A stretch of DNA of 63,800 nucleotides, filler included, from Welwitschia mirabilis (Eukaryota): assembly GCA_051453625.1 (NCBI GenBank). It is 8 parts of one record of this genome, joined end to end, with 100 filler letters (N's around TTAATTAATTAA, not from the genome) between each part and the next. Parts side by side here need not be neighbours in the genome. Positions count along the whole stretch, not along the records: positions 26,235 to 35,700 come from JBOZIK010000001.1; 7 more parts are not named here. One strand, given 5' to 3'. How positions within the stretch are numbered: position 1 is the first letter of the stretch; each line of letters opens with the position of its first letter. The notes below the pieces were generated by a model. That model saw only the letters and a program-made list of their open reading frames with translations, was not told the origin of the DNA and made no database searches. The position numbers were made by a program, and so were the translations under genes. Below are positions 11,307-58,819 of this stretch, piece after piece.

Positions 11307-11406
11307 NNNNNNNNNNNNNNNNNNNNNNNNNNNNNNNNNNNNNNNNNNNNNNNNNNNNNNNNNNNNNNNNNNNNNNNNNNNNNNNNNNNNNNNNNNNNNN
11401 NNNNNN

Positions 11407-11480: not shown

Positions 11481-12390
11481 GTTAGCACAATCTACAACAA
11501 CATGTTCAAAATCTTTGCACTCACAACATTGAATAGAACTGAAAGAATTTTTAACTTCGTCATTTTTCCCTTTGAAGGACCTTTTGGAATATTGGCCTTC
11601 TTTCCTCTTTGTAGGAAGTTTTTGAAGTTCTTAGTTAGAAGTGCTAGGTCTTCATTCATCTCGTCTTTGCTTGAATCATTGGCCTCCTCACATGCCTTGA
11701 GAGCAGTGCTCTTTCTTTTGGGCGGGTCTTCTTTAGGTAGGAGCATTACCTCATATGCCATTAAAGAACCTTTTGAGTTTTTCTACCTTCATCCTATCGA
11801 TGTCCTTGCTTTCTTCGATGGCTGTCACTTTGGGCCTAACCTTTATAGTGAGACTTCTGAGGATTTTGTAAACTACTCTGTTCTCCGAAACTTTCTCTTC
11901 TAAGCCCCACATGTTGTTGACAATATTGCTCACTTTTGTGGTGTAATCAACAATTGTTTCAAATCCCTCTATTCTGATGTCTCAAATTTTGTTGTGAGGA
12001 GTTGAAGCTTCGAGTTCTTCACCACCTTTGTTCCTTCATGAGCTACTTTGAGAGTATGCCACATTTCTGGGGCAGTGGAACATTAAACTACCTGATCATA
12101 CTATTCGTTTGACAGGGCGCAAATGATTGCATTCATGGCTCTTGCATTGTTCTAGAGTTTCTTTGTGTCATCATCCTTTCACTTCTCTCTGGGTTTCATC
12201 GATATAATTCTGTTCGCATCAACTTGCTTTAGAGGAGCATAGCCCTGTTCGACCATGTCCCATACTTTCGGATGAAGAGAGGTCAAAAATATTCTCATCT
12301 TGGACTTCTAATGAGGATAGTTGTTTCTATTGAAGAAGGGAGGCCTTGATACTGCGTGACCCTCTAAATAACTTGTGGATACCATCAAAC
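11481..12390 (-). pseudogene. Sirevirus gag of element A
   Basis: RPPFFNRNNY; NNARAMNAIICAL; VAHEGT; KILRSL; KVTAIEESKD; CxxC zinc knuckle. Multiple stops. Confidence 0.85.
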
Positions 12391-12444
12391 CTGTACCTAA
12401 AAGAGAGAGTATATAGATCTAGAACACCAGGCTCTAATACTACT

Positions 12445-13471
12445 TGTTAGGTTCATTAGGTACCCTTTGGAAGGGGGGGTGTGAATAGGGTGATTATGAA
12501 AACTATTTTCAATATCAGTTAATCTTGTTAAAGAACAACTTAAATCTGAGAAGCTTAATCACACAAGATTATGAGCGAAAACAAAATATAGGAAACAACA
12601 AAAGAGATAAGTGTACCAAATTTACAGTGGTTTGGTAAACCTTGCCTACTCCACTCTCAAGGGGCAGCAATATGCCTTCAGCCTCATGGTTCTCTTAAAA
12701 TACCCAATACAACGGGTGGCTTACAACACCTTTCACTCAGGATTAGATTCCACACCCTTCACCAAGGGACACAAAAGCTTACTCCAATGAGCAACTACAA
12801 AATTTGAATGGAAGAGGATCTGATGGTATGAATGCCTTTAGCATAGTACATCAGCAAGTATGAGTAAGATCTCCCAATGTGGTAGATATCTTAGCGCAAT
12901 ACAAATTTTATGATTACATCAGAGTTTAGCACAATGATCAAATTTAGGAGTAGGCGTATACAATAATACTCATTCATCCTTTTATAGAAAAGGGTTACAA
13001 AGCTAGCTCTTGGAGCCTCAAATTTGAAGCCCTAGCCGTTTAGCACACAACCTTGACCATTGGCTCTTAAGAAAATGTTTTTTGACAGCCACAACAGTTA
13101 TATTTCCGCTCGAACGTCCCCTTCTTTATAATTGGACATCCCGGTTGTAAAGCTTGATTTCTGTTAAAACTGCAAGGCATCCTAGATGTGTTGGTACAAG
13201 GTCTGGACGTCGCTATAATAAGGATCGAGTGCAGGGTTGGACGTCCTTATCACAAACTTCAAAGGTCCCCATACAAGGTTCCTACGAATAGGTCCTAACG
13301 TCTCAGATCAGAACTTTGATGTCCCCATACAAATTACTTCATAGAGGTCTGGACATTCTGTCATGTCTAACAGACGTCTTGATTGGCACGACTTCAGATT
13401 TTCTTAATTTTGACTTAGCTTTGTGAACTATGCAGAGACTCAGACATCGTTGAAACTTATACTCTTCCACA
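12445..13471 (-). repeat. 5' LTR of element A (~1.03 kb)
   Basis: Minus strand starts TGTGGAAGAG and ends CCTATTCAC(AC)CCCCCC...CCTAACA, followed by the PBS. Contains GGACGTCC-type repeats. Confidence 0.85.
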
Positions 13472-15300
13472 TTACCTCTATCACATATCTGAAAGATATT
13501 GAGCAAGTTATGTTTTAGACCTTCAACCAAGTAGACATCATTTATAGTTGGATGATATTTAGTAGTAGCAATAGATCCTTTTCCAATAGTATTTCCTTTG
13601 CTATTGTCCCCAAAAGTAACTTCTCTACCATCATAATCTTGAAATGAGGTTAGGAGATTCCTATTCCCTGTCATATGTCTAGAGCATCCANNNNNNNNNN
13701 ACCTTCTAGGAGGATCCTGATAAAAGGGAGTTTTTCTAATAAATCTATACTTGTTGCTAGAGTACCCAAATTACATTGATTTCTTATAGGGACAATGAAA
13801 TTGAATATGCCCATGATTGTTACATTAACAACATTTTAAACTAACTTCTTCAAAGGATTGATATTGAGTTCCAAGACCAAACGAATAGAAAGTAGGAGTT
13901 TTGCTAGGGAGACTACTCAAACCGGATTTATCAGAAGGAGATCTACCTGCTCCCAACAATTTATTTAGATTATCTCTTCCTTGAGTCAAATGATTTGTGA
14001 TATATCTTACATCTTTCAATTAGTCAAGGATTCTATTCTTAGATTAGCCCTTTTTAGGTTAGTTTTGTGTTCATCCACATATATTTTTTAAAAAAAAATT
14101 TCCTTCCTTAAGTCTAGACTAAGCACATAGAGTTTTTCATAAGCATCAACACGTTCATCGTGACCAAAGTCTAAATCGTCATAGTCATCAAAGATATTTC
14201 CATATATGCTTTGTCTAGTACTAGTAAGGCATTCATCAACTGAAAAACTAGAGGAGATAGGTGTACTTACCTCTTCTGTTACCGCAAGAAGTCCAAAGTG
14301 TAATGTTCCTTCTTCATCACTTGAGCTAGCACCTTCTGCTTCAGATTTATCCGATCTAGCTTTAAGCACTTTCTTTTCTTTTGCTTTAGCCTTCTTGTCC
14401 TGCTTCTTGTTTGCATAATCTGCATCCACATGTCTAAAGTCTTTGCATTCATAACATTGAATTGAATATGAGGAGTTTTTACTTTATTGCTTTTACCTTT
14501 GACAGGTCTCTTAGAGTACTATCCTTCTTTTTTTGTATAATGCATTTGAAGTTCTTTGTCAGTAGAGTTAAATCTTCATCCATTTCATCCTCACTTGAGT
14601 GACTTTCATGAATCTCTTCACTTGCTTTTAGAGCAATGCTCTTTCATTTTGGCATATCTTCTTCTAGAAGCAAGAGGTGCTTTGTATGCCACTAAAGATA
14701 CTTTCAATTCTTCCACCTTAACTCTATCTTTATCCTTGATTTCTTTGATAGCTGTTACCTTTGGTCTGAATTTCATGGTGAGACTCCTCAAGATTTTTCA
14801 CACCACTTAATTCTTAGGAACTATATCACCTAGCTCCCACATGTTATTAACAATGTTGCTTCCTTTGTTAGTATAATCTGCAACAGGCTCCGATTCTTCC
14901 ATTCTTATATTTTTGAATTTGGTAGTCAAGAGCTGGAGCTTTGAGTTCTTGACAGCACTTGTTCCTTCATGAGCTACTCTTAAGGCTTCCCGCATCTCCT
15001 TAGCTGTCATGCATTGCACCACCTGATTATATTCTTTATTAGATAGAGCACAAATGATTACATTCATGGCTCTAGCATTGTTTTGAAGCTTCTTTGTATT
15101 TTTTTTGTCGCACTTGTCTGTGGGGTTCAAGAGCACAACCCCATTTTGATCAACTTGCATTGGTGGTTGATAACCTTGCTCTACCACTTCCCATATTTCT
15201 GGATGAAGTGACATCAAAAAGCTACTTATTTTTGATTTCCAGTGGGCATAGTTGTTGCCATCCAAAAATGGAGGTATGGACATTGCATAACCCTCTGGGT
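13472..15300 (-). pseudogene. gag and protease of element B
   Basis: PPFLDGNNYAHWK; NNARAMNVIICAL; VAHEGT; two zinc-knuckle remnants; GCSRHMTGN...VYLVEGLKHNLL. Confidence 0.88.
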
Positions 15301-15380
15301 AACTGAAGGATGCTATAATGTTTGTATCTATACTAAAACAAATGAGGTACAAATCTAGAGCAATAGGCTCTGATACCAAT

Positions 15381-16412
15381 TGTTAGGCTCATATGGTACC
15401 CTGGGAGGTGAATAGGGTGATTCAAAATATTTCCTTGTTAAATCAATTGTTTTAACCCTTAACCAAAAAGATAACAAAATTATAGGCAAAACTAAAATAA
15501 ACCACAAGCATCAAGGGAACACCAAAGATTTATAGTGATTTGGCCCTTTGCCTACTTCACTCTTAGGGGGCAATAATAGTTGCTAGCCTCTTGGTTCCTT
15601 AAAACTTACAAGCCCCTTCGTACAGGGTTTACAGCTTCTTATAATGCCCTTTTGTCAAGGGACTCTTCATAAATGCTCTGCCTTGAGCATATAGTACAAA
15701 GAGATCTGAAGAGTCTGATGCGAGGAATGTGCCTTTGAGTGCACTAGTCATCAGATAGGTAGTACAATCACTTAGGAAGAAGATTTTCAGATTTAGGAAT
15801 GATAGTACCAAATGGAATTCTTCTAGAGATAGATATTACAAATGTGCATTAGGTAGTGGTGTTGTTCAAAAAAAAAATGTTCACGCCATTTATACAAGAC
15901 TTGGCAAGATATAGTTGTTATAGCCTAAAGCGATGAGTCTTCAGCCTTGGATAATGAGCTAGTAAAGTTTCATGATCGTTGGTGTCTTGTAATGTGCACT
16001 CAAACGTTCACAATGACTATTTTTTCACTCTAGCGTTTGCCTGCCTGGATGTCCCCTTTTGAAAATCTGGACATCCTTGTTAGAATACTTGGCACATGTC
16101 AAAACTGCATAGGATCGTGGACGTCCCACTCAAGAATCGGGATTTCCCCATAATGAGGACCAGGTACAAGGGTGGACAGCTTGCCATAAGATCCAGATGT
16201 CCTTGTGCATTTTGCCTACAAACAGGGGTGGATGCCCCAACTTAGTTTTCGGACGTCCCCATACATCTTTCCCACACACAGGACTAGACGTCCTGTTTTC
16301 AGCTTCGGACGTCTTTGTACAATAAGCCGCATACAAAGGTGGACGTCCCGGTTGCCACGAACACTAGATATCTCATTTTCCACTCTTTTCTGATGATGCC
16401 GATTGATCTACA
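15381..16412 (-). repeat. 5' LTR of element B (~1.03 kb; distal boundary less certain)
   Basis: Adjacent to the PBS. CCTATTCACC motif at its 3' end and a GGACGTCC palindrome cluster at 16040-16350. A TG start at 16412 gives a length like the sister LTRs. Confidence 0.7.
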
Positions 16413-31700: not shown

Positions 31701-34700
31701 NNNNNNNNNNNNNNNNNNNNNNNNNNNNNNNNNNNNNNNNNNNNNNNNNNNNNNNNNNNNNNNNNNAGAAAGTCCATGAGTAATGAGCAACTATCTACCT
31801 AAATAATGATATTTTATATTACATCTAAAGGTGACTTCCTAGGATTTTCTTCTAGTTATAGTTAGAGTTTAGTACTTTCAAGATCATTAAATTCAACTTT
31901 CTTGTAGATGCAATAATGTAAAAGATAATACTACTTCCTAAATTTAACAAGGCTTACTTAATGTATTTATCTCTAATAATGATTAAAATTGTTAAAAATC
32001 CTGGATATTTATATTTTAAAGGGATTTGGTTTTAATAATGGCATTTTTTGTTGTGCTAGAAAGGATCTACTCTTTAGTTCATTCTTCTCTTAACTATATA
32101 TAAGTCCTTAAGAAATTTAGCATAAAAGGAATTTTTCTAATTTTTAAATGGGAAATGTTGATCTTTACTTCCTTTAAAATTTAAAGAAGTTCTTATTGCT
32201 TTTTTTCTATTTATTTTTTTCTAAAGTTTTAAGAAAAAGTTAAGGTTTTTTTTTTGGGAAAGGAACTCATTTTTCTTGTTCATTCTCAACTTTTAGGTAC
32301 TTCATATCATGTGTTTAAGTTTTCTCTAAGTTCTAGTTATTTTTTTTTTCAATCCTCAAGTGTATAACTTTGGTTTGTTGAATGTGTGTATCATCTATCC
32401 CTTTAATAATCTTGAAATTATGCAAATTGGATTTTAGATATGCAAGAAGCGTATCCTTCTCACATTACTTAAGAATAGATAGGATATCATTAGTAGTCTA
32501 GTTTAACTATTGGATGATTTGTTTAAGTTCTTATAACATGAAAGAGATTTATCATTTGAACTAATGTTAGTTATTATTAATCTATATTTGGACTTCTATG
32601 AGTCTCTTGAGAGTATTAGTTAAGAATGTGATTAAGATTATTGATTAATAAAAGATGAAGATTGATGATTATGAGATAATGATGGATATTAGTTTCTAGA
32701 TTGACTTGTGGAGTTTGGTTCTAGTTACCTTGTTTTCATGAAAAATTTGGATGATTTCTTCATCCAAGGTTATAAGTATTAAAGTAAGGATTAGTATCTC
32801 TTTGGGTTTTTCATTATTGGCCTACAACATTTAATTTCTCCTTTTCTACATCTTAAAACATTAGGATGAATGAACATTGTAAAGGTTTTTGAATATCTAC
32901 ACAAAAAATAAAACATTTGGTTTGAGAAATAATAGGATGAGAATGGGCTCCAAGAGATTCAATCTTCCTAGAAAGTTTATTTATTTAGTTGTTAACCTTA
33001 GTATTAGGAAGAATAATAAAGATACTAATAGCTTCAATGTTCATGGTGAAAATATAGCTATTCTCATGTCTTTTATTAATGTATGAAGAATTCAAGATTC
33101 TCCTAGTGATACAAATATTGCATGACCAAACCTAAACTTTTATCAGATAAAAACTAGGACTTTCATTTATAGTATAGTTTTAATGTCAATCATTCCTTAG
33201 GGATTAAAGAGAGAAACTATAATAAAGTAAGCATAAAACCAAATGTAAATAAAAAAAAATTTTAGGAAAATGAAAATAAAAATAGAATAAATATTTAAAA
33301 ATATAGAGATTAAAGTTAGAAATGAGAATAACTCTTAGAATTTAGCATGAACATAATAGTAATGATAGAGTTCTAAAATGAAAATAGATTTTCTCTATTC
33401 TTAAATTGTAAATATTAAGCTTTGTCAAAGATAGAGCATGATCATACAATCTCACTCACCATATAAGTGTTGGTGAAGAGCTAAAGTCATCTTAGCTCTC
33501 ATAGCATAACTGCATAAAGATGAAAAGTATGATCTAATTCTTAAATATCATCATACATTAGTATAAACTACATATTAAGATGTAAGCATGAAGAAATCAC
33601 TCATGAATAACATAAATCTCAACATATTTTAGTACAATAATAAGCATAATAATTATGTAAAAAATTCAAACTTTCTATCAAAAATATTGCACCAAAGATT
33701 AACTTTTGTTTCTTCAACTTATTAAAGCATTAAATGTAGGTTGCTAGCCATACTTAAAATTAGGAAATCTAAGAACAATAGTATTTCACTAATAAAATAG
33801 AGTAAGCTACAACAAATAAAGAGAAAATACTAAGCTATAATTGAAATGTAATGCTAGCCTTAAGGGCTAGAAAATCCTTAAAGAATTATCTAGAATATAG
33901 AATGCATAAAAGACATTAGTCTCATCATGAGGTATAATGGGATTAGTCCCTTCCTAAGCATGAATTATCCTCCACCAAAAATATCCTATCAAAGTGGGCT
34001 CTTAGTCCTTTTTATAAAAAAATTTAGTTTCTAGTGGTTGGAATTCTTTATATTCTACTATTTGATGGGATGTTTGAGATTCTATCTTTAGCATTTAATG
34101 AAGTAAGTTATTATAACAGGTCCAACACATGAACCTTGGATAGGATTCCTTCACCAATTGATGCCATTGCCACATGTCTTTAATTCTTTTGTCACTTGGT
34201 ATAGAATTGATCATGTTACACCTAAAGATAATGATATGTTTTTGTATATAGAATGATAAGGTTTGTAACCAGAAACAACTTTATTCTTCATGATAAATTG
34301 AGATTATAAGTCCAAAAGCAATTGTCGTTAAGTGACTAGCACCATCCTATACCTTACTAGTACCATAAATTTTTTATATAGTAATAAGTGCATCTTCTGA
34401 TATGTGCTCCATAATATAGCTAAAATCCTAAGAATGTCATGTAGAAAGCATAAAATTAAGTATGAAAACAAAAAGAATAGAAAACATATTTTTATGATTA
34501 AAATAGCTAAAGTAATATCTTTTCTTATAATAAATTAGCCCAAAATACTTGAGATAAATGTTACATATTAGCATATTCCCCAATGAAAATTTTTCTAGTT
34601 CCTTAGAAAAAAGCTGATAGATAATGACTAACACATAAAAGGTTATAAATAAAAACATTTAAGCATGATGTAAAAATGATAAAAGATTTAAAAAATTTGG

Positions 34701-35034
34701 ACAATGTTTTAAAAATGAGATATTAAAAACAATTTTAAAGTAAAAATTCCATATCCTCCAATCAAAGTTAAACTTTATCATCAAAGTTTAAAAAATAGAA
34801 AAATAAATATAAAGTTTGATAAAAAATTGATGTAAACATTAGGGAAAAGATGCTTTATTTCATGTCATTTTATTAAATCTAAGAAAAAGGAAAGCAAAAT
34901 AATATAAATAAATGCTAAAAGGAAATGTGTAATGTAACATTGCTAAAATGATGCATAAATTTAAAAGAAACTCCTAAGAAATTTTTCTAAGTAATAAGGC
35001 TCCACAAATGATTTTTGACATTCAAAAGTTCGAC

Positions 35035-35530
35035 AATTAAAAATCAAACTCGCTTGATGCTCTAATACGAAAATGTAAAAGCCTAAAATTATAAAGTTAA
35101 AAATCTTCAAACTTGACACTCTGATACCAAATGTGATGTCCTAAAAATCTACAGTTAAAAATCTTCAAACTCGATGCTTTGAATAACTTCACAATAACTA
35201 TGCCCAGTAGAATCATTAACCTAGGGCTTTGATACCAAAATGTAATACCCACAATTTGATACAGTTGAAAATCTTCAAACTTGATGCTCTGATACCAAAA
35301 TGAAAGGGTCTAAAATTTAAGTTGAAACTTTAAGACTTACTTTATTGCTCTGATATCAAAATGAAATGACCCAAACTTCTACCATTTTAAAACTTGCTTT
35401 GAAGCTTTGATATGAAAATATAAGGGCTTGAAAATTTTACCGTTAAAAAATCGGACTCGCTCTAATACCAAAATGTAATGCTCCAAAATCTAATAGTTGA
35501 AAAGAAATCGAACTTGCTTTGGTATTCAAA
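35035..35530 (-). repeat. Tandem array of ~9 units (50-61 bp), each containing a tRNA-iMet PBS plus an LTR-like terminus
   Basis: GCTCTGATACCA-like cores start at 35059, 35118, 35176 (partial), 35226, 35286, 35347, 35404, 35459 and 35516. Most are followed by AA(A)TG(T/A)AA. Confidence 0.88.
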
Positions 35531-35800
35531 ACATAAAACCTCTGTATATAATTAAATCAAAAGCTAGAAGTCTTAATCTTTGTCTTATATAATCATATAA
35601 GTCACATCTTAATTTAATCATTGAATAAAATTACTTAAGTTATTTAGACTATTAAATGTTATTCATTCATTAAATGGCACTAGTGATTTAAAACATTTGC
35701 NNNNNNNNNNNNNNNNNNNNNNNNNNNNNNNNNNNNNNNNNNNNTTAATTAATTAANNNNNNNNNNNNNNNNNNNNNNNNNNNNNNNNNNNNNNNNNNNN

Positions 35801-38800
35801 ACCAAGAATGAATGAGAGAGAGAAAGGATGTACTAATGCACAGATGTGATCTCTATGGTACATCAGTCTTCTATTTAAGAAAATTCTAAGAGTAAGTACA
35901 TCAAAAATCTAAACCTTATCAGAGTGTTCAGATGTGCGAATAAAAGGTATATCAGTGCTTGTTCAATCTCTGATTTTACAAAAATAGTATTAGTGTCTTC
36001 TAGTGTTTAGAGAAAAGATTTTATACTTGAGATGTACAATATGAATGTTTTCTCAAAGGTAAATGAACCATTATACTTTTTTGGAGAGCCATTGCACTTT
36101 TGCTAGAGAACCATTGTGTTGAAAATGGTTATATTTTCCCATCGTACAGTCAATATTTTGGAGTGTTTAGTTGACTGCAAAATGTGATTCTTGCTGCGTG
36201 TCGTGAGGTCGCCTGTTTGAATATCTACAATCACCCATATTTCTATCAGTTGGAGTTCACTGCATGTCATGCAGTCATCCACATGAATATCTATGGTCGC
36301 TCATATTTCTATCAGGTTGGAGTTCACTGCATGTTGTGTGGTCACTCATATGAATATCTGCAGTCACCGGTATTTCTATTAGATTGGATTTTACCGAATT
36401 TTGTGCGGTTACCTATATGAATATATTTAGTCACCCATAAGTATATCAGATTATATCAGTTTGAGTGAAATGCAGTCGCTCATTTTATTATGGCAGTCAC
36501 CCATGTGTTAACCAGTCTTCTTTATGTTATCAGTGTTCAGTCGATTAGAACATCATGTGCAACCACCCACTTTTGAAGCAGTATTATAGTTCTTAAACAT
36601 GCGGTCACTCGATTTTATAAATCGATCACATAGTTCTAGAAGTTACCTACACAAAAGACTAACTTACAAAAACTTGCTAACTTAATCAATGACAATGGAT
36701 TCTCAACAAACTTCCCCTTTGTCATTGATTGACGAAAAATAATAATTTGATAACTGGATTCTCCCCCTAACTCATTTAAATTTAAACACAATTAAGTTTA
36801 AACAAGTTTTGTATATAACAATCATAAAAATCAGAAGTACTTTGTAGAAAGATAAGTTTATTTATATTACTCAAAAAGTGTTATTACATGTGAACATTAT
36901 AATTTAACCCATTTATAATACAAAGAAGAGATAAAAATGTTACAAATTTTACTTCCCCTTTTTGACAAAATCAAGGATGAGAAGGATACAATAAAAAGAC
37001 ACGTAAGGACTTAGACAAACTCTAAAGATTTAGAAGATTGAGTACCCTCAGATTAAGATGTTTCAGCAACTAGAGTCCCACTGGCAATTAGAGCCTTTTT
37101 GATGTGACGAGTCCATGAGTCAATTCGATGAAGAAGATGGAGAATTTTTGGGGTTTAAGAGGCCTTAACCTTAGGCCTTGAAGGAGTAGTAGGTTCTTCA
37201 AAGATGTGCATCCTTGAAAGCATGCCATAATCTATAGGCCTCATGGGCTTTTGAATCTCCTATCTTACGAGATGAGAAATGTTGAAGTGATAACAAATCC
37301 AAGTAATGAGGAAAGGATAAGGCAGGGCACTCTGCTTGTGTGACTGAAGCTGGTTTATCATATGTTTAAGCATGATGGTAGGGACATCCAAATCTCTTTA
37401 CTAGTCTAGTGCATATATGAGATAGACCCAATAATTTGAAAGCTCATCTTGACGCCTGGCAATTGAGAGGAAGTTTTAGGATATTATTAAGTGCAGAAGA
37501 TGAAATTTTAAAAGAAGTTGAGAAGCTTTGAGAGTCTTCTTCCATGTAATGTGAGTGCCACACACATGGTGAGTGGCTACATCCTTCTCTTCAAAATACT
37601 TAGCCATGGGCCAGTATTCTCCTCAGTTTCCTCTTAGGAGGCTAGTAAGAGATGCAAAGATCTGAAGTGATATGCATTTCATAGCCAAACAGAGGTAATG
37701 GATGTAGACTGGGCTGCATCATACCTGGCATTGGAGTAGAATAACCTAGTAATTAAAGGGTAACACGTTCTAGAAATATGAAGGAAATATCCCCAATTTA
37801 CTTCTTCTAATAAGGTCTGGACTTCCTTGAGGCTGAGAAATTGCATGGGTTTACAAGTCCTTTCTAATGCAATAGGGCTTGTCTTAAAATATTTCTCATA
37901 ATGCCTCAGTTATTTCATGCTCATCCTAGAAAATACATAACTAGATGGTTTGACGACAACTTCCTTTCTTCTCTTTCTAGATCCTTCTCTTGGCTGAGAT
38001 AAAGCCATTTAAATCCCAGATCTGAGAGAAAGCACATAAAAAAAGTGGAAGAGGATCCCTTAGAATCTTAGAAAATGACAGAAAATGACACCAAAATAAT
38101 AAAACAAGAGAAAAGGAGGGGCGGATTTAAAAATCTGTGACACATCACCTTAAACGTGAGTGGCCAATTATAAGGTCAGTTAACCTATGTAAAATTTTAA
38201 AACCCTAATTGTAAGGAGGCAGGCAACCTAGATAATTTAGTGGTTGACTCTGCGAGAAGAAAATATTACAGCAAAAGGATCAAATAAAACTTGGTCGACC
38301 TAAGATAAATGCATAGTCGACCTGATATGACTGGAAGAGAACATTATAAGGTTGACCAAAGTGTATTGTTTGGTCAACCCAGATTTGACAGGATTTTACA
38401 GAAAACACTGGGACTAATGCGGTTGACCCAACACAACATGTGGTCTACCTAGTAAGAAGAAAATCTAACAGTGAGAAATTTGAGAAAAAAATAAATTCCC
38501 TAATTAAAAATTAGGTCGATTGGGGTTCAAATATATATGGTTTAAAAAGATTTAAACCCCTCATTAAATTTAATTATTGAGATGAGGCTGGGTAAGGAAA
38601 CTCCTTTTCAGACTTGATATCTAGAAAATACTGAAGGGTTAAAAAATGATCTAGAGATAGAGGTTTTGTAAAAATATTAGCTAATTAATCTTATATGCAA
38701 ACATATTCTAAAGATATGATTTTCTTTTGACTAATTCATGAATGAAGTGGTACCTGATATCTATGTGTTTGGTTTTAGTGTGTTGNNNNNNNNNNNNNNN

Positions 38801-41464
38801 NNNNNNNNNNNNNNNNNNNNNNNNNNNNNNNNNNNNNNNNNNNNNNNNNNNNNNNNNNNNNNNNNNNNNNNNNNNNNNNNNNNNNCAAAGACAGTGGTAA
38901 TGTATGTGGACTGGGAAGCATCATCCCTGGCATTCGAATAGAACACCCTCATAACCAAAGGATAGCATGTGCCAGATACATGAAGAAAATACCCCCAGTT
39001 CAATTCTTCTAGCAGAGTCTGGATCTCCCTGAGGCTCAAAAATTTTACAAAAAAATTCAACTAAAAGCTAGTCAACCTAAGGAGAAGACATGATTTACCT
39101 AATGTAACTAGATAAAAACATCAAAAGAATAAGATTTATTGAAACTAAGTATTTAGTCAACCCATATTCTTCAGGATTTTACAAGAAAAACTGGGTTCAA
39201 ATCGGTCGATCCAACCTAACATGTGGTTGACCTAGTAAAAATAAAATCTAACAGAGAGACATCTGAGAATAAAGCGGGGGTTTAAAAATATAAGATTTTA
39301 AAATATTTAAACCCCCCAATCTAAATTTAATTATTCAGATGAGGCTAGGCGAGCTAAGTCCTTTTCAGACTTGATACCCAGAAAATACTGAAGAGTAAAA
39401 AAATGATTTGAAGATAGAGGTTTTGTGAAAATATCAGCCAATTGATCTTCTATGCAAACATATTCTAAAGATATGATTTTCTTTTCAACTAATTCATAAG
39501 TGAAGTGGTACCTAATATTGATGTGTTTGGTTCAAGTGTATTAGACTGGGTTGTGAGCTATTTGAATAGCACTTAAGTTGTCACATAGGATTGGTACTTC
39601 CAAGATGGTCAGCCCATAGTCCTTCAAGGTCCTTTTCATCCACAAGGTCTGAGTGCACTAGGCTCCAGTAGCTATGTATTCAGCCTCAGTGATAGAAAGG
39701 GATATAAAGCATTGTTTATTAATATACCAAGTTGTAAGACAATTTCCAAAGAAGAAACATCTACCACTTGTGTTTTTGTGATCATCTTTACAGCCAACCA
39801 AATATGCATCGCTATATCTTGTTAAACTTAAAGTAGTATGATTTGAAAATCATAAACCAAAATTTATAGTACCTTTCACATAGTGTAGTATTCTCTTAGT
39901 AGCTATAAGATGTGATTCCTTAGGTTTGCTTTGGTACCTTGTAAACAAATCAATACTAAAAGCTATATCTGGGTGACTAGCCATTAGATATAATAGAATT
40001 TCAATAATACTACAATATACCTTTTAATCCACATCCTTACCATGTTCATCTAAAGAAAGTTTAATATTTATAGCCATTGAAGATCCATACACTTTGCATT
40101 TTATAGTTTAAATTTTTTAATCAAATGTAAAGAATATTTCTTTTGATTGATAAAGATTTCCTATTTGTGTTGCTAAATTTGTAAACCCAAAGACATATTT
40201 ATAGGACCAACCATGCTCATTTCAAATTCAGAACTCATGAGTTTAACAAAATCATTTGACAAGTTTTCATTTGTTGATCCAAAAATTATATCATTAACAT
40301 AGATTTGCACTAATATTAAATCATTTTTCAAAACTTTTCGAAATAAAGTTCTATCAATGGAGTCTTTAGAAAAATCATGTTGAAGCAAGAATGATGAAAG
40401 CTTTTCATACCAAGCTCTAGGAGCTTGTTTTAATCCATACAAGGCTTNNNNNNNNNNNNNNNNNNNNNNNNNNNNNNNNNNNNNNNNNNNNNNNNNNNNN
40501 NNNNNNNNNNNNNNNNNNNNNNNNNNNNNNNNNNNNNNNNNNNNNNNCTCTAGGAGCTTGTTTTAATCCATACAAGGCTTTATTAAGTTTATAGACATAT
40601 TCAGGATTGTAAGGATCAGAAAAACTTGAGGTTGCTTAACATAAACTTCTTTTTAATATTTCCATTTAGAAAGGCACTTTTTACATCCATTTTAATGACT
40701 TTCATTTTCTTAAAATGGGCAAAATATAGAAACATTCTGATTAATTTCAATCTAGCAATCGGAGTAAATGTATCTTCACAATCTACTTCTCCTATTTGGG
40801 AATACTCTTAAGCTACTAATCTAGCTTTATTCTTTGTAATTTCATTGTTCTCATTTACTTTGTTTCTAAAAATCCACTTTATGCCTATGACATTCTTTTT
40901 TGTTGGTTTTGGAATGAGAGTCTAAACCTTATTCCTAGTGAATTGTTTAAGTTCTTCTTACATGGCATTTATCTAACTTGGATTAAATTCAGCCTCTTCA
41001 AAAGATTTTGGTTCAATTTGGGATAAAAGAAAGACATGAAAACTAAAATTCTTAAGATAATTTCTAGTAATGGTACATTGCTGAACATTTCCAATAATAG
41101 AATCCAAAGGATGATCCTTGAGCTCCTTAATTTTTGGAGTTACTATATCTCTTGGGATTTCATCTATTTAATTAGTAGGACCAGAGAGAATAAAATCTTC
41201 ATCAAGGTTAATGGATTTTGTAGAATCTAAAATATCATGTATTTTAATATTAATTGATTCTTTCATATGAAGAGTTCTCTTATTAAAAACTCTATAGGCT
41301 CTACTGGATTGAGAGTATCCTAAAAAGATTTCTTCATCTGATTTTTCATCAAATTTTGCTAGATCCTCTCGATCTCTTAAGATGAAGCATTTACTTCCAA
41401 ATGTTTTAAAATAGGATATATTTGGTTTCTTACCTTTCCAAAGCTCATAAGGAGTTTTAGAAGT
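35801..41464 (-). mobile_element. Sirevirus (second family): integrase end, RT, RNase H, env-like ORF, multi-PPT, 3' LTR; pol-end/env segment present twice
   Basis: KPNISYFKTFG; MDVKSAFLNG; YGLKQAPRAWY; RNase H end at ~39335 and again at ~38580; env-like region 37050-38010; PPT-like tracts at 36709-36720, ~36760 and ~36952; LTR starts TGTTGAGA at 36708. Confidence 0.85.
36200..36450. repeat. ~66-bp tandem repeats in the Sirevirus LTR U3
   Basis: GAATATCT..(GG/AG)TCACCCATATTTCTATCAG(G)TTGGAGTTCACTGCATG occurs in 3-4 imperfect copies. Confidence 0.75.
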
Positions 41465-41564
41465 NNNNNNNNNNNNNNNNNNNNNNNNNNNNNNNNNNNN
41501 NNNNNNNNTTAATTAATTAANNNNNNNNNNNNNNNNNNNNNNNNNNNNNNNNNNNNNNNNNNNN

Positions 41565-48682: not shown

Positions 48683-50284
48683 TCAGGAAGTCAACAAAAG
48701 CACTCGCTTGAAAGGCCACCAGAATAACCAGGACATCCTGCAGAAAAGCCAACCCCACAATCCCAACAATACGAACGCCGCAATCACCGACGCTCCGTTC
48801 TCCACAGCCTCTGAATGAAATCCGGAGTCACGCTGCTCAACGCTTCTCCGCAACTCCTTTTGCTGTTGCGCAGCGTGCTTACTATTCACAGTCCTCCTAC
48901 GCTTCAGCGATGATGTGATTGCGCGGAATGCCGCAAGGCTGTCTCTTCCACTGAGGTGAACTTTGCCTCTTTCCAAATGCATTTTCGTCTCTTTCACCTC
49001 CATCTTCATCTTCATCGTCATTTCTTCGTCTCCAACGGATGACTCGTCCTCCATCACTCTGCAAACCACTTCTATCGCAGACTCCACACTCTTCTCCGAA
49101 TCCATCACAGCAATCACGTTTCTCCATATCACTCTGAATTGCTGCTCCGCCGCCTCCTCGTTACAAGAAGAGTACACAGACTGAACCTNNNNNNNNNNNN
49201 NNNNNNNNNNNNNNNNNNNNNNNNNNNNNNNNNNNNNNNNNNNNNNNNNNNNNNNNNNNNNNNNNNNNNNNNNNNNNNNNNNNNNNNNAATCACGTTTCT
49301 CCATATCACTCTGAATTGCTGCTCCGCCGCCTCCTCGTTACAAGAAGAGTACACAGACTGAACCTCCGATGGACTCCACGTGGGCGTTGAAAGATTGACG
49401 CCTTCGTTGGTGCGTCTGTTGATCAAGATCCAACTCACTTGCGTCTTTTCCATCAACTCTTTTCTCCGTCGCCACATCTCCGCCATTCTTGTGGCTGGTG
49501 TTCTACTTTCTGACGATGACCTTGGAGTTTTGGATTGAAGTCCTGTGGTGCTTTTGCCTTCATTTCGGTAAGAAGAAAGAGTGATGGCGAATGGGCTCTG
49601 CAACGCCCACGCGGCCATCGATTCGTCTCCGTCAAAACCCATGAGTCCCCACAGGACTTTGCTCAACACCACATCTTCTCTGAATCGCACGTCCACTGCC
49701 CACACCAAATCATCTGCTCTCCACTCTCCTTCCATCATCTCCTTTGGATGGCGTCGAGGTTCGTAAATAACGGAAGGAAAGCCGTGGGCGTACAACCTCC
49801 GGAAGCCACCAAAAGAGGAAGAGATGAAGGAATTGAAGAGAGCATCGGAAGTGGAATGCCAGAGACGCTTACATGAATTCTCCCAGAGATNNNNNNNNNN
49901 NNNNNNNNNNNNNNNNNNNNNNNNNNNNNNNNNNNNNNNNNNNNNNNNNNNNNNNNNNNNNNNNNNNNNNNNNNNNNNNNNNNNNNNNNNAGAGGAAGAG
50001 ATGAAGGAATTGAAGAGAGCATCGGAAGTGGAATGCCAGAGACGCTTACATGAATTCTCCCAGAGATACTCCTCTCTGCAGAGCTGTGACATTTCTCTGC
50101 AAGTGCATGCTGCCATCGCCAGAGTGCTTCCCTCCACTCTTCCAAATATCTCGCTCATAACATCTCTGTCCAACATGGTCATCTTGCTCCAGTTTCTCTT
50201 CTCATCTGCAAATATTACTTCATCAAAGTCAGAGAGCTCAATATACTCCCTCTGAGAGCCTCTATATAAAAGAAATCTGTGCAT
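48683..50284 (-). CDS. Single-exon F-box protein, At2g27310/At2g36090-like, with C-terminal hydrophobic segment (~415 aa after removing two assembly duplications)
   Basis: LDRDVMSEIFGRVEGSTLAMAACTCREMSQLCREEYLWENSCKRLWHST F-box; GGFRRLYAHGFP; DLVWAVDVRF; VSWILIN; LSGRDSL. Markedly GC-richer than the flanks, with no stops. Start codon uncertain (could be the later MTMLDRD). Confidence 0.88.
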   Translation of the reverse strand: MHRFLLYRGSQREYIELSDFDEVIFADEKRNWSKMTMLDRDVMSEIFGRVEGSTLAMAACTCREMSQLCREEYLWENSCKRLWHSTSDALFNSFISSSXXXXXXXXXXXXXXXXXXXXXXXXXXXXXXXXXXLWENSCKRLWHSTSDALFNSFISSSFGGFRRLYAHGFPSVIYEPRRHPKEMMEGEWRADDLVWAVDVRFREDVVLSKVLWGLMGFDGDESMAAWALQSPFAITLSSYRNEGKSTTGLQSKTPRSSSESRTPATRMAEMWRRRKELMEKTQVSWILINRRTNEGVNLSTPTWSPSEVQSVYSSCNEEAAEQQFRVIWRNVIXXXXXXXXXXXXXXXXXXXXXXXXXXXXXXXXXXVQSVYSSCNEEAAEQQFRVIWRNVIAVMDSEKSVESAIEVVCRVMEDESSVGDEEMTMKMKMEVKETKMHLERGKVHLSGRDSLAAFRAITSSLKRRRTVNSKHAAQQQKELRRSVEQRDSGFHSEAVENGASVIAAFVLLGLWGWLFCRMSWLFWWPFKRVLLLTS

Positions 50285-51293
50285 CGGACGACAAAGTAAT
50301 AGTTCGTCCTGAGATCCGATTTTTCACAAGAAACAGCGTGCGAACATGCAGAAGAGTTCAAGTCTACGTCATAAATGCGAAAACCCTTCATGACTTTAAG
50401 GTTTCGAGCATTGCATCTTTCTTCCAAGATAAAAACGACAGCGAAAGTGGACCTGATCTACAGAAGAAAGCCAATTTGACGAAAAAGGGTGTCTGCGTCA
50501 GCCGTTAACCAACTCCATTTCCAGAAATCCTTACTATATAAGAATTTGTAGGATATCAATCAACCAAGCAAGAGGGAAAGAGGGCTAGTATTTGTTGGAG
50601 ACGGCACAGACCTCAAACGTTTTAAATTTATTATGTTGTATAGATCCTGCTATTTCATTTCCAGAAAACATGGAAAGCTGGTCAACTTGTGCTGCGATTA
50701 TCTTGAAATTGAAACTTAATTTTTATTTGGTCCCAAGAAGATTAAAGGATCTGTTGGATAGAGGAAATGCGAGGAAATGACAATAGCATGGAATACAAAG
50801 ATAGATTCAATGAAACTGCCCACAATCATTAAAAAATTAAAATAAAAAATCACACAATTTAAAGCTCTATCAAGACTTTTTAACCCAAACGATGGCTGAC
50901 ATTTTAGGGTTTTGAAGTCTGCTACAAATCTGGCCGTTCAATATTAAGTAATTTGCCACAGTGACTACACATCTTCCCTTCCCTCACTTCTTTTCATCGA
51001 GTTCCAGACTTCTGATAAGGATAGAGCCCGCAATACTGCGCAAAATCCGGGTTCTAGAAAACTATGGCTGGACCAACCCTGTTGCTCTTGAAAAGCAAAC
51101 CATTATGACTTGCAATTTGAATTGCAATTTGTCAAGTTTAATGGGACCACGGGATTTAACTCGGAAGAAATTTCAAACCAAACACATCGTTATCTCCCTT
51201 CGTAATTGCATCAGCAAGAAAAGTGTGTTTTATGATTGGAGGTCCGTGCTAAAACTGAAATAGTAATCAAGGAGAAAAAGAAGGCATTGATTA

Positions 51294-56511: not shown

Positions 56512-58819
56512 CTTGAAAAAAGGCAGATTCCATTGGGGAGAAGAAGCTGAAAGGAGTTTTGCTTTACTGAAAGAGAAGCTATGCACTGCTCTAGTCTTAG
56601 GCTTACCAAATTTTGATAAGCTATTTGAAGTTGATTGTGATGCTAGTGGAGTGGAAATAGGGGTTATTCTATCCCAAGAGTGCAGGCCAGTTTGCTACTT
56701 TAGTGAAAAGCTCAGTGATGCTAGGCAGAAGTGGAGTACCTATGATAAGGAGTTTTATTTGGTTGTGCGGTCTTTGAAGACATGCGAATACTATCTAATT
56801 AACAAGGAATTCATATTGTACTTAGACCATGAGGGACTAAAGTACCTGAATAGTTAAAAGCAAATTAGCAAAGACATGCATGCCTAATGATGCCAATTCT
56901 TACAAAAATTCCTTGTTAAGCTACATCATAAGTCAAGAGTAAATAATGAAGTGGCAGATGCACTAAGTTGGAAAGCGGGCTTATTTATTACCTTGAAGCA
57001 GGAAATCATTGGCTTTGAATAGTTGTAGGANNNNNNNNNNNNNNNNNNNNNNNNNNNNNNNNNNNNNNNNNNNNNNNNNNNNNNNNNNNNNNNNNNNNNN
57101 NNNNNNNNNNNNNNNNNNNNNNNNNNNNNNNNNNNNNNNNNNNNNNNNNNNNNNNNNNNNNNNNNNNNNNNNNNNNNNNNNNNNNNNNNNNNNNNNNNNN
57201 NNNNNNNNNNNNNNNNNNNNNNNNNNNNNNNNNNNNNNNNNNNNNNNNNNNNNNNNNNNNNNNNNNNNNNNNNNNNNNNNNNNNNNNNNNNNNNNNNNNN
57301 NNNNNNNNNNNNNNNNNNNNNNNNNNNNNNNNNNNNNNNNNNNNNNNNNNNNNNNNNNNNNNNNNNNNNNNNNNNNNNNNNNNNNNNNNNNNNNNNNNNN
57401 NNNNNNNNNNNNNNNNNNNNNNNNNNNNNNNNNNNNNNNNNNNNNNNNNNNNNNNNNNNNNNNNNNNNNNNNNNNNNNNNNNNNNNNNNNNNNNNNNNNN
57501 NNNNNNNNNNNNNNNNNNNNNNNNNNNNNNNNNNNNNNNNNNNNNNNNNNNNNNNNNNNNNNNNNNNNNNNNNNNNNNNNNNNNNNNNNNNNNNNNNNNN
57601 NNNNNNNNNNNNNNNNNNNNNNNNNNNNNNNNNNNNNNNNNNNNNNNNNNNNNNNNNNNNNNNNNNNNNNNNNNNNNNNNNNNNNNNNNNNNNNNNNNNN
57701 NNNNNNNNNNNNNNNNNNNNNNNNNNNNNNNNNNNNNNNNNNNNNNNNNNNNNNNNNNNNNNNNNNNNNNNNNNNNNNNNNNNNNNNNNNNNNNNNNNNN
57801 NNNNNNNNNNNNNNNNNNNNNNNNNNNNNNNNNNNNNNNNNNNNNNNNNNNNNNNNNNNNNNNNNNNNNNNNNNNNNNNNNNNNNNNNNNNNNNNNNNNN
57901 NNNNNNNNGGAGATGTATAAAAAAGCTAAGTAGAGACTAAAGGAGGCTAATAAAAGGTATAAGATAGCTTCTGACAAGCATGCGAGGAAATAGACTTTTG
58001 TAGTGGGTGACTCTGTCATGGTGTTTTTTTGGTAGGAGTGATTTCCAATTGATACATACGATAAGTTTCAACCGAGAAAATATGGATCATTTACAATTAG
58101 CAAGAAGATCAATGATTATGCTTATGTTGTTGACCTTCCAACGNNNNNNNNNNNNNNNNNNNNNNNNNNNNNNNNNNNNNNNNNNNNNNNNNNNNNNNNN
58201 NNNNNNNNNNNNNNNNNNNNNNNNNNNNNNNNNNNNNNNNNNNCAATCAGCAAGAAGATCAATGATAATGCTTATGTTGTTGACCTTCCAACGAACATGG
58301 GAATTTCTAATACCTTTAACATAGCTAATTTATCACCGCTTCACACATTTGATAAGCCGATGTATCCTAATCCAGAGCCTAACTCGAGAATGAGTTTCCT
58401 TCAAGTGGAGGGGACTGACGTGGAATGTACTGCTAGTGACTTCATGGATGGGGCCGAGCCTAGTTAAGAGGGACGAAGTGGTATAACCTTCNNNNNNNNN
58501 NNNNNNNNNNNNNNNNNNNNNNNNNNNNNNNNNNNNNNNNNNNNNNNNNNNNNNNNNNNNNNNNNNNNNNNNNNNNNNNNNNNNNNNNNNNNNNNNNNNN
58601 NNNNNNNNNNNNNNNNNNNNNNNNNNNNNNNNNNNNNNNNNNNNNNNNNNNNNNNCTAATCCCACATTGTTTAGGGATTTCTGTTGAAAGGACTTATGTC
58701 CTATAAATAAGTACATCATGTACTATTGTAGATAACAATTTTTGAAATAGAAGTTATAGAGATTTCTCTTTCCCTTTAAGTTTTTTTTTTTTTTTCCGAA
58801 TACTTTTCACGCTGCGTCA
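56512..58819 (+). mobile_element. CRM-clade Ty3/gypsy 3' half: RNase H, integrase end, PPT, 3' LTR (58416-58819)
   Basis: [40 protein letters not shown]...[22 protein letters not shown] running into an LTR with TGACG...CGTCA termini. Confidence 0.85.

What the first reader, a model, noticed from the sequence alone, without database searches (positions are those of the whole stretch)
35035..35530. Repeat-spacer array built from tRNA-iMet primer-binding sites and LTR-like termini
Seen: about nine units at spacings of 59, 58, 50, 60, 61, 57, 55 and 57 bp. On the minus strand each reads ...(TTA)CA-TT(T)-TGGTATCAGAGC, an LTR-end dinucleotide plus the canonical Met-i PBS. The ~17-nt core is visibly better conserved than the ~40-nt spacers, which are related but divergent. 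No PPT, full LTR or gag is adjacent. Established: TGGTATCAGAGC is complementary to the tRNA-iMet 3' end and normally occurs once per element; tandem-array TRIMs have full LTRs and PPTs, which are absent here. Inference: this is either a minisatellite seeded from an LTR/PBS junction or the product of repeated template switching. If the core is selectively kept, the array could act as a multi-priming template or as a decoy/target array for tRNA-iMet or its 3' fragments.
Basis: partly seen in the sequence, partly recalled or inferred. Interest (0 to 1): 0.85.

Follow-up and report, generated by a model that had tools for sequence, protein, structure and literature searches.

The report
Decayed minisatellite of retrotransposon primer sites
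This is a worn-down tandem repeat of about nine 57-base units, each copied from the spot where a plant LTR retrotransposon's end meets its tRNA primer-binding site; it belongs to a high-copy repeat family and shows no sign of a function of its own at this locus.

Summary
On the minus strand each unit reads LTR-type CA, then 2-3 T, then a tRNA-iMet primer-binding site (PBS). The 12-mer is exact in 1 of 9 units and within one mismatch in 5 of 9. The 17-nt core is better conserved than the rest (mean pairwise identity 0.70 vs 0.47).

It is not a repeat-spacer array: the "spacers" are homologous, so this is a degenerate ~57-bp minisatellite. The tRNA match extends to about 19 nt, as expected for a real retrotransposon PBS.

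Public DNA contigs of the same organism pile on the array at hundreds to thousands of times the single-copy depth. Their flanks again look like neighbouring units. Some join a unit directly to the high-copy segment 35609-35693.

Core changes are mostly C>T or G>A decay. No PPT, gag, hairpin, tRNA or Rfam hit is present. Two RNA-seq runs gave only 15 partial, unlike reads.

Twelve metagenome contigs carry similar tandem LTR-end/PBS modules. The closest published relatives are maize CRM1TR/CRM4TR. The decoy or multi-priming idea is unsupported. Interest is low to moderate.

The parts
35034..35551 (-). Array of nine degenerate ~57-bp head-to-tail units. On the minus strand each unit reads spacer, CA, TT(T), then the PBS-like core.
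   Evidence: nhmmer profile hits, 9 of 9 units, E 6e-15 to 2e-5; MAFFT A1; blastn self-hits at 68-82% identity; direct-repeat families D1 and D2.
35059..35070 (-). Core of u1, 2 mismatches to TGGTATCAGAGC.
35118..35129 (-). Core of u2, 1 mismatch.
35176..35187 (-). Core of u3, degenerate. This unit is 50 bp and has a different spacer.
35226..35237 (-). Core of u4, 1 mismatch. It is followed on the minus strand by CCTAGGTT, the best-preserved extended tRNA match.
35286..35297 (-). Core of u5, the only exact 12-mer in the array.
35347..35358 (-). Core of u6, 1 mismatch.
35404..35415 (-). Core of u7, 3 mismatches.
35459..35470 (-). Core of u8, 1 mismatch.
35517..35529 (-). Core of u9, degenerate with a 1-nt insertion. 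The same variant is seen in the loose-end consensus of 46 other contigs.
   Evidence: table 7 (place 35503)
35263..35302 (-). A 40-nt segment (PBS core plus 23 nt on its + strand upstream side) that other genomic copies match at 85% or better before diverging.
   Evidence: table 7: loose ends before 35263 (61 records in X1, 81 in X3) and behind 35302 (125 in X1, 109 in X3).
34998..35033 (-). Partial, spacer-like terminal unit without a PBS.
   Evidence: Direct repeat D4, 35016-35045 vs 35134-35163, 73%; reading.
35552..35608 (-). Possible further degenerate unit remnant between the array and the high-copy segment (weak).
   Evidence: By eye; not found by nhmmer.
35609..35693 (-). High-copy segment immediately upstream of the array on the minus strand. 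In other genomic copies it is joined directly to a unit. Candidate end of an LTR (inference).
   Evidence: bin 35596-35700 has summed depth 35707 (X1) and 81840 (X3); loose ends at 35609 and 35693; joints 35478>35609, 35478>35629 and 35252>35629.
35701..35800 (.). Assembly gap (44 N, TTAATTAATTAA, 44 N). The contig holding the array runs 31767-35700, and adjacency across the gap is uncertain.

Best explanation
The array is an inert, decaying minisatellite derived from a transposable element.

Anatomy (shown): read on the minus strand, each monomer of about 57 bp is the last ~36 nt of an LTR ending in CA, a 2-3 nt T spacer, and an extended (~19 nt) primer-binding site complementary to the 3' end of tRNA-iMet. 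This is the 5' LTR/PBS junction of an iMet-primed LTR retrotransposon, repeated head to tail.

Genomic setting (shown): the array is not unique to this locus. Units of this kind occur in the order of thousands per genome and are again tandem, with periods of 46-64 bp. Some copies abut the same high-copy flank.

Dispersal (inferred): the array is most likely carried in the leader of a retrotransposon-derived, probably non-autonomous or truncated, element family and was spread by it.

Origin of the duplication (inferred): reverse-transcriptase template switching or stutter at the tRNA-templated end of plus-strand strong-stop DNA, or DNA-level slippage. Unit number then varied through RT slippage or unequal exchange.

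Core conservation (inferred): the LTR tip and PBS are the cis elements the element needs for integration and priming, and the PBS can be re-copied from the tRNA at each cycle. The core therefore stayed uniform in the family while the A/T-rich remainder drifted.

State at this locus (shown): nothing keeps it intact. Cores carry deamination-type transitions and no transcript was seen.
For: Anatomy: nine units at 50-61 bp spacing. CA plus 2-3 nt plus core is present in 6 of 9 units. Three ordinary single junctions in the same window have the same geometry (7396, 15367, 16677), and two of them are followed by copia gag ORFs (Retrotran_gag_2, E 1.4e-17 and 5.4e-12).

Extended PBS: the 19-nt small RNA AAACCTGGCTCTGATACCA is listed as 'miR5139' in PMC4814767 (passage), and an 18-nt form in PMC5846777 (passage). 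It aligns to u5 at 18 of 19 positions with one 2-nt insertion, and similarly to u2. In u4, 17 of the 18 aligned positions match, with a different 2-nt insertion.

Family level: single-copy flanks have depth 2-3.4 in X1 and 4.5-7.7 in X3 with 0-2 differences. The array bins reach 1351-15852 (X1) and 2636-32535 (X3). Loose-end consensus on both sides of 35263-35302 resembles the adjoining units. Twelve listed 'letters between' cases give periods of 46-64 bp in other copies, and 388 more are not shown. Joints link units to 35609 and 35629.

Decay: 7 of 9 core substitutions are C>T or G>A.

No function-type features: 0 tRNAs; 0 Rfam hits; no purine run of 6 or more on the minus strand and no Cassandra 5S boxes; no inverted copy of the unit. 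RNA-seq gave 11 reads of 12.5 million read and 4 of 11.1 million, all only partly aligned and none 99% alike.

Precedent: 12 metagenome contigs, which I group by eye into 7 sequence families, carry 2-5 tandem LTR-end/PBS modules with periods of 30-69 bp. Maize CRM1TR and CRM4TR monomers span the LTR-UTR junction (PMC3648361, passages).
Against: No parent element was identified. No LTR pair, TSD, PPT or gag lies in the 3.9-kb contig, and the left flank falls to near single copy at 33984-34355. 'Carried by a retrotransposon' therefore rests only on contig joints and depth.

The tool warns that summed contig depth is not a copy number.

The conservation contrast between core and rest is real, and no neutral model was fitted to it, so selection on the core is not excluded.

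At this locus the array ends in spacer-like sequence on both sides. It does not end just after a PBS as in the metagenome cases, so the RT-stutter model is not directly supported here.

Organism B's flanks are identical to the window, so B provides no test of orthologous conservation.

RNA-seq covered only two poly(A)/cDNA libraries, about a quarter of each. Small RNAs were not examined.
Confidence: 0.72

Rival explanations
1. The array is a free-standing satellite or minisatellite. An LTR/PBS fragment was amplified purely at the DNA level by slippage or unequal crossing-over. It now exists as arrays that are not part of any mobile element, and this locus is a small dispersed outlier.
For: The family is tandem elsewhere and abundant. 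No LTR pair, PPT, gag or TSD is found around this array. Neighbouring units are most alike in their pre-core parts (u2/u3, u6/u7, u8/u9), as in local duplication.
Against: Other copies join units to the same flanking high-copy segment at 35609/35629, and share the odd terminal u9-type variant (46 loose ends at 35503). This suggests whole arrays with their flank were dispersed together. More than 100 distinct contig contexts surround one core, which argues against a homogenised block.
Confidence: 0.17
2. The array is a selected multi-PBS device. It would serve the element, as extra tRNA-iMet landing pads or as a sponge for PBS-targeting 3' tRNA fragments and miR845/miR1511-type RNAs. Alternatively it would serve the host as a decoy or target array.
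For: The core is better conserved than the rest within the array and across the family (40-nt segment). PBS-targeting small RNAs linked to tRNA-iMet exist in plants (PMC8215267, passages). Small RNAs with the tRNA-iMet 3' end are reported in several plants (search listing; passages read in 3 of the 6 papers). The minus-strand RNA folds better than shuffles (z -3.62, 0 of 100).
Against: Only 1 of 9 cores is intact, and the changes are deamination-type. There are no transcripts from this stretch in two RNA-seq runs and no hairpin or inverted unit. The fold signal has a trivial cause: the PBS motif pairs with itself through G-U, so direct repeats pair with each other (inference from the sequence). 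The plus strand has z +0.90, and no covariation could be tested.
Confidence: 0.07
3. The array is built from tRNA-derived (sense-strand) retro-sequences: SINE-like or tRNA-pseudogene units whose + strand carries the tRNA-iMet 3' end including CCA, followed by an A-rich tail.
For: The + strand reads GCTCTGATACCA followed by AAA(A), and matches the tRNA 3' end over about 19 nt.
Against: ARAGORN finds 0 tRNAs and Rfam 0 hits at gathering threshold. The CA dinucleotide at 2-3 nt from the core, as in the window's genuine LTR/PBS junctions, has no explanation in this model. I could not test similarity beyond 19 nt, because no tool-derived full tRNA-iMet sequence was at hand.
Confidence: 0.03
4. The array is an assembly artefact, with collapsed or mis-joined reads in a gap-rich draft.
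For: The window has 29 N runs, and the 100-N gaps are flanked by duplicated sequence. The contig ends 150 bp from the array.
Against: An independent contig of run X1 covers 34848-35130 with 2 differences. Hundreds of other contigs show the same unit organisation. The units differ from one another, which is unlike a collapse artefact.
Confidence: 0.01

Closest known systems
Canonical 5' LTR/PBS junction of tRNA-iMet-primed plant LTR retrotransposons (Ty1/copia and most chromoviruses)
   Same: LTR-type CA, a 2-3 nt gap, then TGGTATCAGAGC, with extended complementarity to about 19 nt. The geometry is the same as at 7396, 15367 and 16677 in this window. tRNA-Met is the commonest primer, and TGG lies 0-5 bp from the LTR end (PMC6317226, passages).
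   Different: The junction normally occurs once per element and is followed by gag. Here there are nine tandem copies, with no gag, PPT or second LTR in the contig.
CRM1TR / CRM4TR tandem repeats of maize (PMC3648361, passages read)
   Same: These are tandem repeats derived entirely from a retrotransposon, with monomers spanning the LTR-UTR junction. They arose independently from the same region of two subfamilies.
   Different: Per the passages read, their monomers take in several hundred nt on each side of the junction, lie at a few (peri)centromeric loci and are 97-98% like the parent. Here the monomer is ~57 bp, the units are 65-82% alike, the family is dispersed and the parent is unidentified. 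The passages read do not mention the PBS.
Tandemly arranged TRIMs, including Cassandra arrays (PMC7215508, PMC13570524; passages)
   Same: The PBS recurs periodically because a retroelement module is repeated head to tail.
   Different: Those arrays alternate full LTRs with internal domains holding PBS and PPT, and the search pattern used in PMC7215508 allows 200-1000 nt between successive modules. Here the period is 57 bp, with no PPT and no 5S boxes.
Satellites born from LTR-retrotransposon untranslated regions, such as PisTR-A from Ogre (review PMC9659126, passages and Table 1)
   Same: A tandem repeat inside or derived from a non-coding part of an LTR retrotransposon, amplified to high copy.
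   Different: The listed plant cases come from 3' UTRs, LTRs or UTRs in general. None in the passages read is built on the LTR-tip/PBS module.
PBS-targeting small-RNA loci linked to tRNA-iMet (miR845, miR1511; 3' CCA tRFs) (PMC8215267, passages)
   Same: They share the tRNA-iMet 3'-end/PBS sequence.
   Different: As recalled rather than seen in a call, such miRNA loci need a hairpin precursor; expression is also expected. Here there is no inverted repeat of the unit, and no reads were seen.

Membership tests
LTR retrotransposon 5' LTR/PBS junction (iMet-primed) | At least 12 nt complementary to the 3' end of tRNA-iMet | tested here: met
   Exact in 1 of 9 units, at most 1 mismatch in 5 of 9, at most 3 in 7 of 9. 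The match extends to about 19 nt with a 2-nt insertion in u2, u5 and u4.
LTR retrotransposon 5' LTR/PBS junction (iMet-primed) | LTR terminus ...CA lying 0-5 nt upstream of the PBS | tested here: met
   CA at 2-3 nt in 6 of 9 units. The three single junctions in the window have the same geometry.
LTR retrotransposon 5' LTR/PBS junction (iMet-primed) | A full LTR upstream and a matching 3' LTR | tested here: inconclusive
   The contig ends at 35700, about 150 bp upstream on the minus strand. The high-copy segment 35609-35693 may be an LTR end. No similar segment lies in 33900-35033 (best scores 27 and 26, below the shuffle maximum of 36).
LTR retrotransposon 5' LTR/PBS junction (iMet-primed) | One PBS per element, followed by gag-pol or by PPT plus 3' LTR | tested here: not met
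   There are nine tandem copies. The only minus-strand ORFs of 70 aa or more within contig 31767-35700 are 34437-34658, which looks like low-complexity junk (by eye, not scanned), and 35097-35309, which lies inside the array. No purine run of 6 or more on the minus strand.
Tandemly arranged TRIM / Cassandra | Alternating full LTRs and internal domains with PBS and PPT; for Cassandra, 5S box A and box C in the LTR | tested here: not met
   The period is 50-61 bp. No PPT, and neither 5S box pattern occurs anywhere in the window. No 5S Rfam hit.
TE-derived tandem repeat (CRM1TR/CRM4TR type) | Head-to-tail monomers homologous to a contiguous segment of a parent retrotransposon spanning the LTR/internal junction | tested here: inconclusive
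   Head-to-tail arrangement is shown. Homology to the junction is at motif level only (CA, spacer, extended PBS); no parent element was identified because no genome is held.
TE-derived tandem repeat (CRM1TR/CRM4TR type) | Present at more than one locus or amplified | tested here: met
   Array bins reach hundreds to thousands of times the single-copy depth in two DNA runs, with many distinct contig contexts.
PBS-targeting miRNA gene (MIR845 / MIR1511 type) | Hairpin precursor (inverted repeat) and expression | tested here: not met
   None of the 8 inverted-repeat pairs reported is a copy of the unit; arms are 14-31 nt at 71-87% complementarity. Plus-strand fold z +0.90. RNA-seq gave 15 partial reads only. 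Small-RNA libraries were not tested.
tRNA gene, tRNA-derived SINE | Cloverleaf or tRNA-related head detectable by tRNA models | tested here: not met
   ARAGORN 0 genes; Rfam 0 matches at gathering threshold.

The most novel reading that the evidence does not exclude
A retrotransposon lineage, or a non-autonomous parasite of one, carries a multi-PBS leader as an adaptation. Tandem LTR-tip/PBS modules would be generated by reverse-transcriptase stutter at the tRNA-templated end of plus-strand strong-stop DNA. They would then be kept because several tRNA-iMet landing pads raise priming efficiency, or because they soak up PBS-targeting 3' tRNA fragments and miR845/miR1511-type RNAs.

Two observations fit this reading. 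Across the family, a 40-nt core stays conserved while the rest of the unit drifts. In all 6 metagenome families that could be judged, the duplication boundary lies -2 to +4 nt from the 3' edge of the PBS.
Probability: 0.08. Interest if true: 0.65.

Novelty: new variant of a known kind. Interest (0 to 1): 0.3.

Why it matters
For this locus it matters little. The array is a decaying piece of repeat DNA in a transposon-rich, untranscribed stretch.

Two side points have some value. First, short tandem arrays of the LTR-tip/PBS module recur in unrelated eukaryote contigs. In the cases I could judge, they break at the edge of the tRNA-complementary stretch, which hints at a reverse-transcription error mode (stutter on the tRNA primer). 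I did not find this described. Second, such arrays are missed by Tandem Repeats Finder, and they would multiply PBS hits in PBS-based tools, inflating or confusing retrotransposon annotation and iPBS-type markers.

If the multi-PBS leader were adaptive, it would be a new counter-move in the contest between retrotransposons and tRNA-fragment or miRNA silencing. Nothing here shows that.

Tried and rejected
- Earlier findings of this scan, by sequence, place and words: nothing.
- Tandem Repeats Finder at minimum score 30 does not report the array.
- Cassandra: no 5S boxes, no Rfam 5S hit.
- tRNA gene or SINE: none found.
- LTR pair or terminal inverted repeat between the two flanks: local alignment is no better than shuffles.
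- Literature string searches for six 15-17-nt strings of the unit: 0 papers. A search for 'tandem PBS' and similar phrases returned only irrelevant papers, where PBS means buffered saline or PCR primer sites. A six-term search gave 0 papers. A five-term search gave 33 papers, 25 listed, none on multi-PBS arrays judging by title and abstract. The Vaccinium satellite paper was irrelevant, as its 'primer binding sites' are PCR primers.
- Viral contigs: 0 matches to the two-core pattern and 0 to a 27-nt stretch of the unit.
- Placing the organism through the only non-TE-like ORF (49289-49888, minus strand): no homologue at E <= 0.001 among near-length or longer proteins.
- No RNA holder was listed by the look-up of sequencing runs.
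- LTR pairs in the metagenome loci: none within the short contigs, so I cannot show that those arrays sit in complete elements.
- PMC5551035 (Schorn et al.) is not held. It is cited only through the review PMC8215267.
- Supplementary files of the papers were not opened. Those of PMC6317226 (PBS tables) and PMC3648361 (monomer alignments) may bear on whether PBS duplications were already recorded.

Full report
**1. What is there**

Window 35034-35551 holds nine head-to-tail units. On the + strand each carries a GCTCTGATACCA-like 12-mer, which is the reverse complement of TGGTATCAGAGC. The 12-mers start at 35059, 35118, 35176, 35226, 35286, 35347, 35404, 35459 and 35517, giving spacings of 59, 58, 50, 60, 61, 57, 55 and 58.

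With up to one mismatch the 12-mer occurs 8 times in the window, against 0.29 expected; 0 of 100 shuffles reached 8. Five of those 8 lie in the array. One of 9 units is exact, 5 of 9 have at most one mismatch and 7 of 9 at most three. Units u3 and u9 are visible only by alignment.

A profile built from the nine units recovers exactly these nine (E 6e-15 to 2e-5). The next hit, E 0.0047, is merely the PBS of a copia element at 7386-7408. Tandem Repeats Finder does not report the array.

**2. Core versus the rest**

On the MAFFT alignment A1, the 17 columns of CATTT plus the 12-mer have mean pairwise identity 0.70, and the other 43 kept columns have 0.47. Without u3 and u9 the values are 0.84 and 0.49. 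Shuffling columns gave a 17-column window at least as good in 87 of 5000 trials (nine units) and 3 of 5000 (seven units).

One caveat is that an aligner anchors on the best block. The "spacers" are homologous to each other (63% mean column identity over the whole unit; blastn pairs 68-82%). This is a degenerate minisatellite, not a repeat-spacer array.

**3. What the unit is**

On the minus strand the unit reads spacer, CA, TT(T), then the 12-mer. CA is present in 6 of 9 units. The three other PBS sites in the window (7396 and 15367 on the minus strand, 16677 on the plus strand) show the ordinary single form: CA, 2 nt, PBS. Two of them are followed by copia gag ORFs (Retrotran_gag_2, E 1.4e-17 and 5.4e-12).

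The match to the tRNA goes beyond 12 nt. The 19-nt small RNA AAACCTGGCTCTGATACCA is listed in a tomato paper as 'miR5139' (PMC4814767, passage), and an 18-nt form appears in Cryptomeria (PMC5846777, passage). I take this RNA to be the tRNA-iMet 3' end. It aligns to u5 at 18 of 19 positions with one 2-nt insertion, and similarly to u2. In u4, 17 of the 18 aligned positions match, with a different insertion.

An extended PBS of about 18 nt is what plus-strand strong-stop synthesis copies from the primer tRNA (established retroviral mechanism, from my own knowledge). This marks the unit as a real retrotransposon junction rather than a chance 12-mer.

**4. What it is not**

- There is no tRNA and no Rfam family at gathering threshold.
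- There are no Cassandra 5S boxes and no purine run of 6 or more on the minus strand, hence no PPT.
- No inverted copy of the unit exists.
- Within contig 31767-35700 the only minus-strand ORFs of 70 aa or more are one at 34437-34658 that looks like low-complexity junk (by eye, not scanned) and one inside the array.
- The two flanks show no LTR-like or inverted similarity above shuffles.
- A degenerate copia pol lies 4.6 kb away on the minus strand (RVT_2 and SH3_retrovirus), but several assembly gaps separate it from the array.
- The contig holding the array is only 31767-35700. It ends about 150 bp upstream of the array on the minus strand, so "no full LTR adjacent" cannot be judged.

**5. 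The family**

No genome is held for this window. I therefore laid contigs of two public DNA runs and raw reads of two RNA runs on 32000-35700.

Flanking pieces have depth 2-3.4 (X1) and 4.5-7.7 (X3) with 0-2 differences. The organism is therefore in both runs, and organism B is essentially identical there, which means B gives no test of conservation. By contrast the four array bins reach 1351-15852 (X1) and 2636-32535 (X3). Relative to the single-copy depths, the peak bin corresponds roughly to five or six thousand unit equivalents in either run. The tool warns that this is not a copy number, so I claim only the order of magnitude.

Many contigs match only 35263-35302 and then diverge: loose ends before 35263 number 61 (X1) and 81 (X3), and behind 35302 they number 125 and 109. 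The consensus of those loose parts resembles the neighbouring units. Twelve listed contigs bridge one unit to another through 1-39 other letters, giving periods of 46-64 bp, and 388 more are not shown.

Joints 35478>35609, 35478>35629 and 35252>35629 tie units directly to the still more abundant segment 35609-35693. The odd u9-type core is shared by 46 loose ends.

The array is thus one copy of an abundant, dispersed, tandemly organised family that travels with a particular flank. On the minus strand that flank lies upstream, where an LTR would be. This last step is inference.

**6. State at this locus**

Seven of nine core substitutions are C>T or G>A, the usual decay of methylated plant repeats.

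RNA-seq gave 11 reads of 12.5 million read (X13) and 4 of 11.1 million (X16). All were only partly aligned and none was 99% alike. Small RNAs were not examined.

The minus-strand RNA folds better than shuffles (z -3.62), and the plus strand does not (z +0.90). I attribute this to the PBS motif being self-complementary through G-U pairs, so that direct repeats pair with each other. That is inference from the sequence, with no covariation evidence.

**7. Related cases elsewhere**

A scan of metagenome contigs for two cores 35-55 nt apart gave 12 loci. By eye these fall into 7 sequence families with 2-5 tandem modules of LTR end, 2-3 nt, then PBS. The periods are 30, 40-50, 60-61 and 68-69 bp, and many units are nearly identical.

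The distal end of the array is visible in 6 families. In all 6, the duplicated segment ends -2 to +4 nt from the 3' edge of the 12-mer. If breakpoints were uniform over the unit, I estimate a probability of about 4e-6. This is a rough calculation of my own on a small sample, and the search required both copies to contain the PBS.

The pattern points to reverse-transcriptase switching at the end of the tRNA-templated stretch. The window's own array ends in spacer-like sequence on both sides, so it neither shows nor contradicts this. Viral contigs gave nothing.

**8. Comparison with the literature**

- Tandemly arranged TRIMs and Cassandra arrays alternate full LTRs and internal domains (PMC7215508, PMC13570524; passages). 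The array fails those defining features.
- Maize CRM1TR and CRM4TR are tandem repeats whose monomers span the LTR-UTR junction of their parent elements (PMC3648361, passages). They are the closest precedent, but their monomers are far longer.
- A review table of TE-derived satellites lists LTR and UTR origins, but no LTR-tip/PBS module in the passages I read (PMC9659126).
- PBS-targeting tRNA fragments, miR845 and miR1511 are linked to tRNA-iMet (PMC8215267, passages). This is why the decoy idea is worth stating, although nothing here supports it.
- I found no description of short multi-PBS arrays. Supplements were closed.

**9. Verdict**

I read the feature as a decayed minisatellite of LTR-tip/PBS modules belonging to a high-copy repeat family: a new variant of a known kind, of low to moderate interest.

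Noticed in passing
L001-L012 (metagenome contigs): There are tandem arrays of 2-5 LTR-end/PBS modules with periods of 30-69 bp. In 6 of the 6 families where the distal end is visible, the duplication boundary lies -2 to +4 nt from the PBS 3' edge. This suggests reverse-transcriptase stutter on the tRNA primer.
   Followed up: partly
window 35034-35551, minus strand: The minus-strand RNA folds with z -3.62 (0 of 100 shuffles), against +0.90 for the plus strand. The likely cause is that the PBS motif is self-complementary through G-U pairs, so tandem copies pair with each other.
   Followed up: partly
window 36218-36439: An unrelated 67-bp tandem repeat of 3.3 copies, 76% matches, TRF score 248. 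A 21-bp repeat lies at 36065-36116.
   Followed up: no
window 15367-15378 with 14807-15382, and 7396-7407 with 6373-6825 (all minus strand): Two ordinary copia 5' junctions, each a single PBS followed by a gag ORF (Retrotran_gag_2). They serve as internal controls for the canonical arrangement.
   Followed up: yes
window 40173-41512 (minus strand); 3237-4640 and 10419-11453 (minus strand); 56513-56857 (plus strand): Degenerate Ty1/copia pol fragments (RVT_2, rve, SH3_retrovirus) and an RT_RNaseH_2/RT_RNaseH fragment, which I take to be Ty3/gypsy-type. The window is a mosaic of decayed retrotransposons.
   Followed up: partly
window N runs, e.g. 35701-35800, 49189-49288, 49891-49990, 58144-58243: Seven gaps have the form 44 N, TTAATTAATTAA, 44 N (contig linkers). 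At least three 100-N gaps (49189-49288, 49891-49990, 58144-58243) and the 776-N gap at 3734-4509 are flanked by the same sequence on both sides, visible as duplicated peptide stretches. These look like unmerged overlapping contig ends.
   Followed up: no
window 48683-50323 (minus strand): A long open frame interrupted by gaps, the only ORF that does not look like a transposon. It has no Pfam hit in the part tested and no homologue in two protein searches.
   Followed up: partly
window 34480-34603: A short segment about 450 bp from the array with summed depth of about 5000 (X1) and 9900 (X3). It is another high-copy repeat of unknown kind.
   Followed up: no
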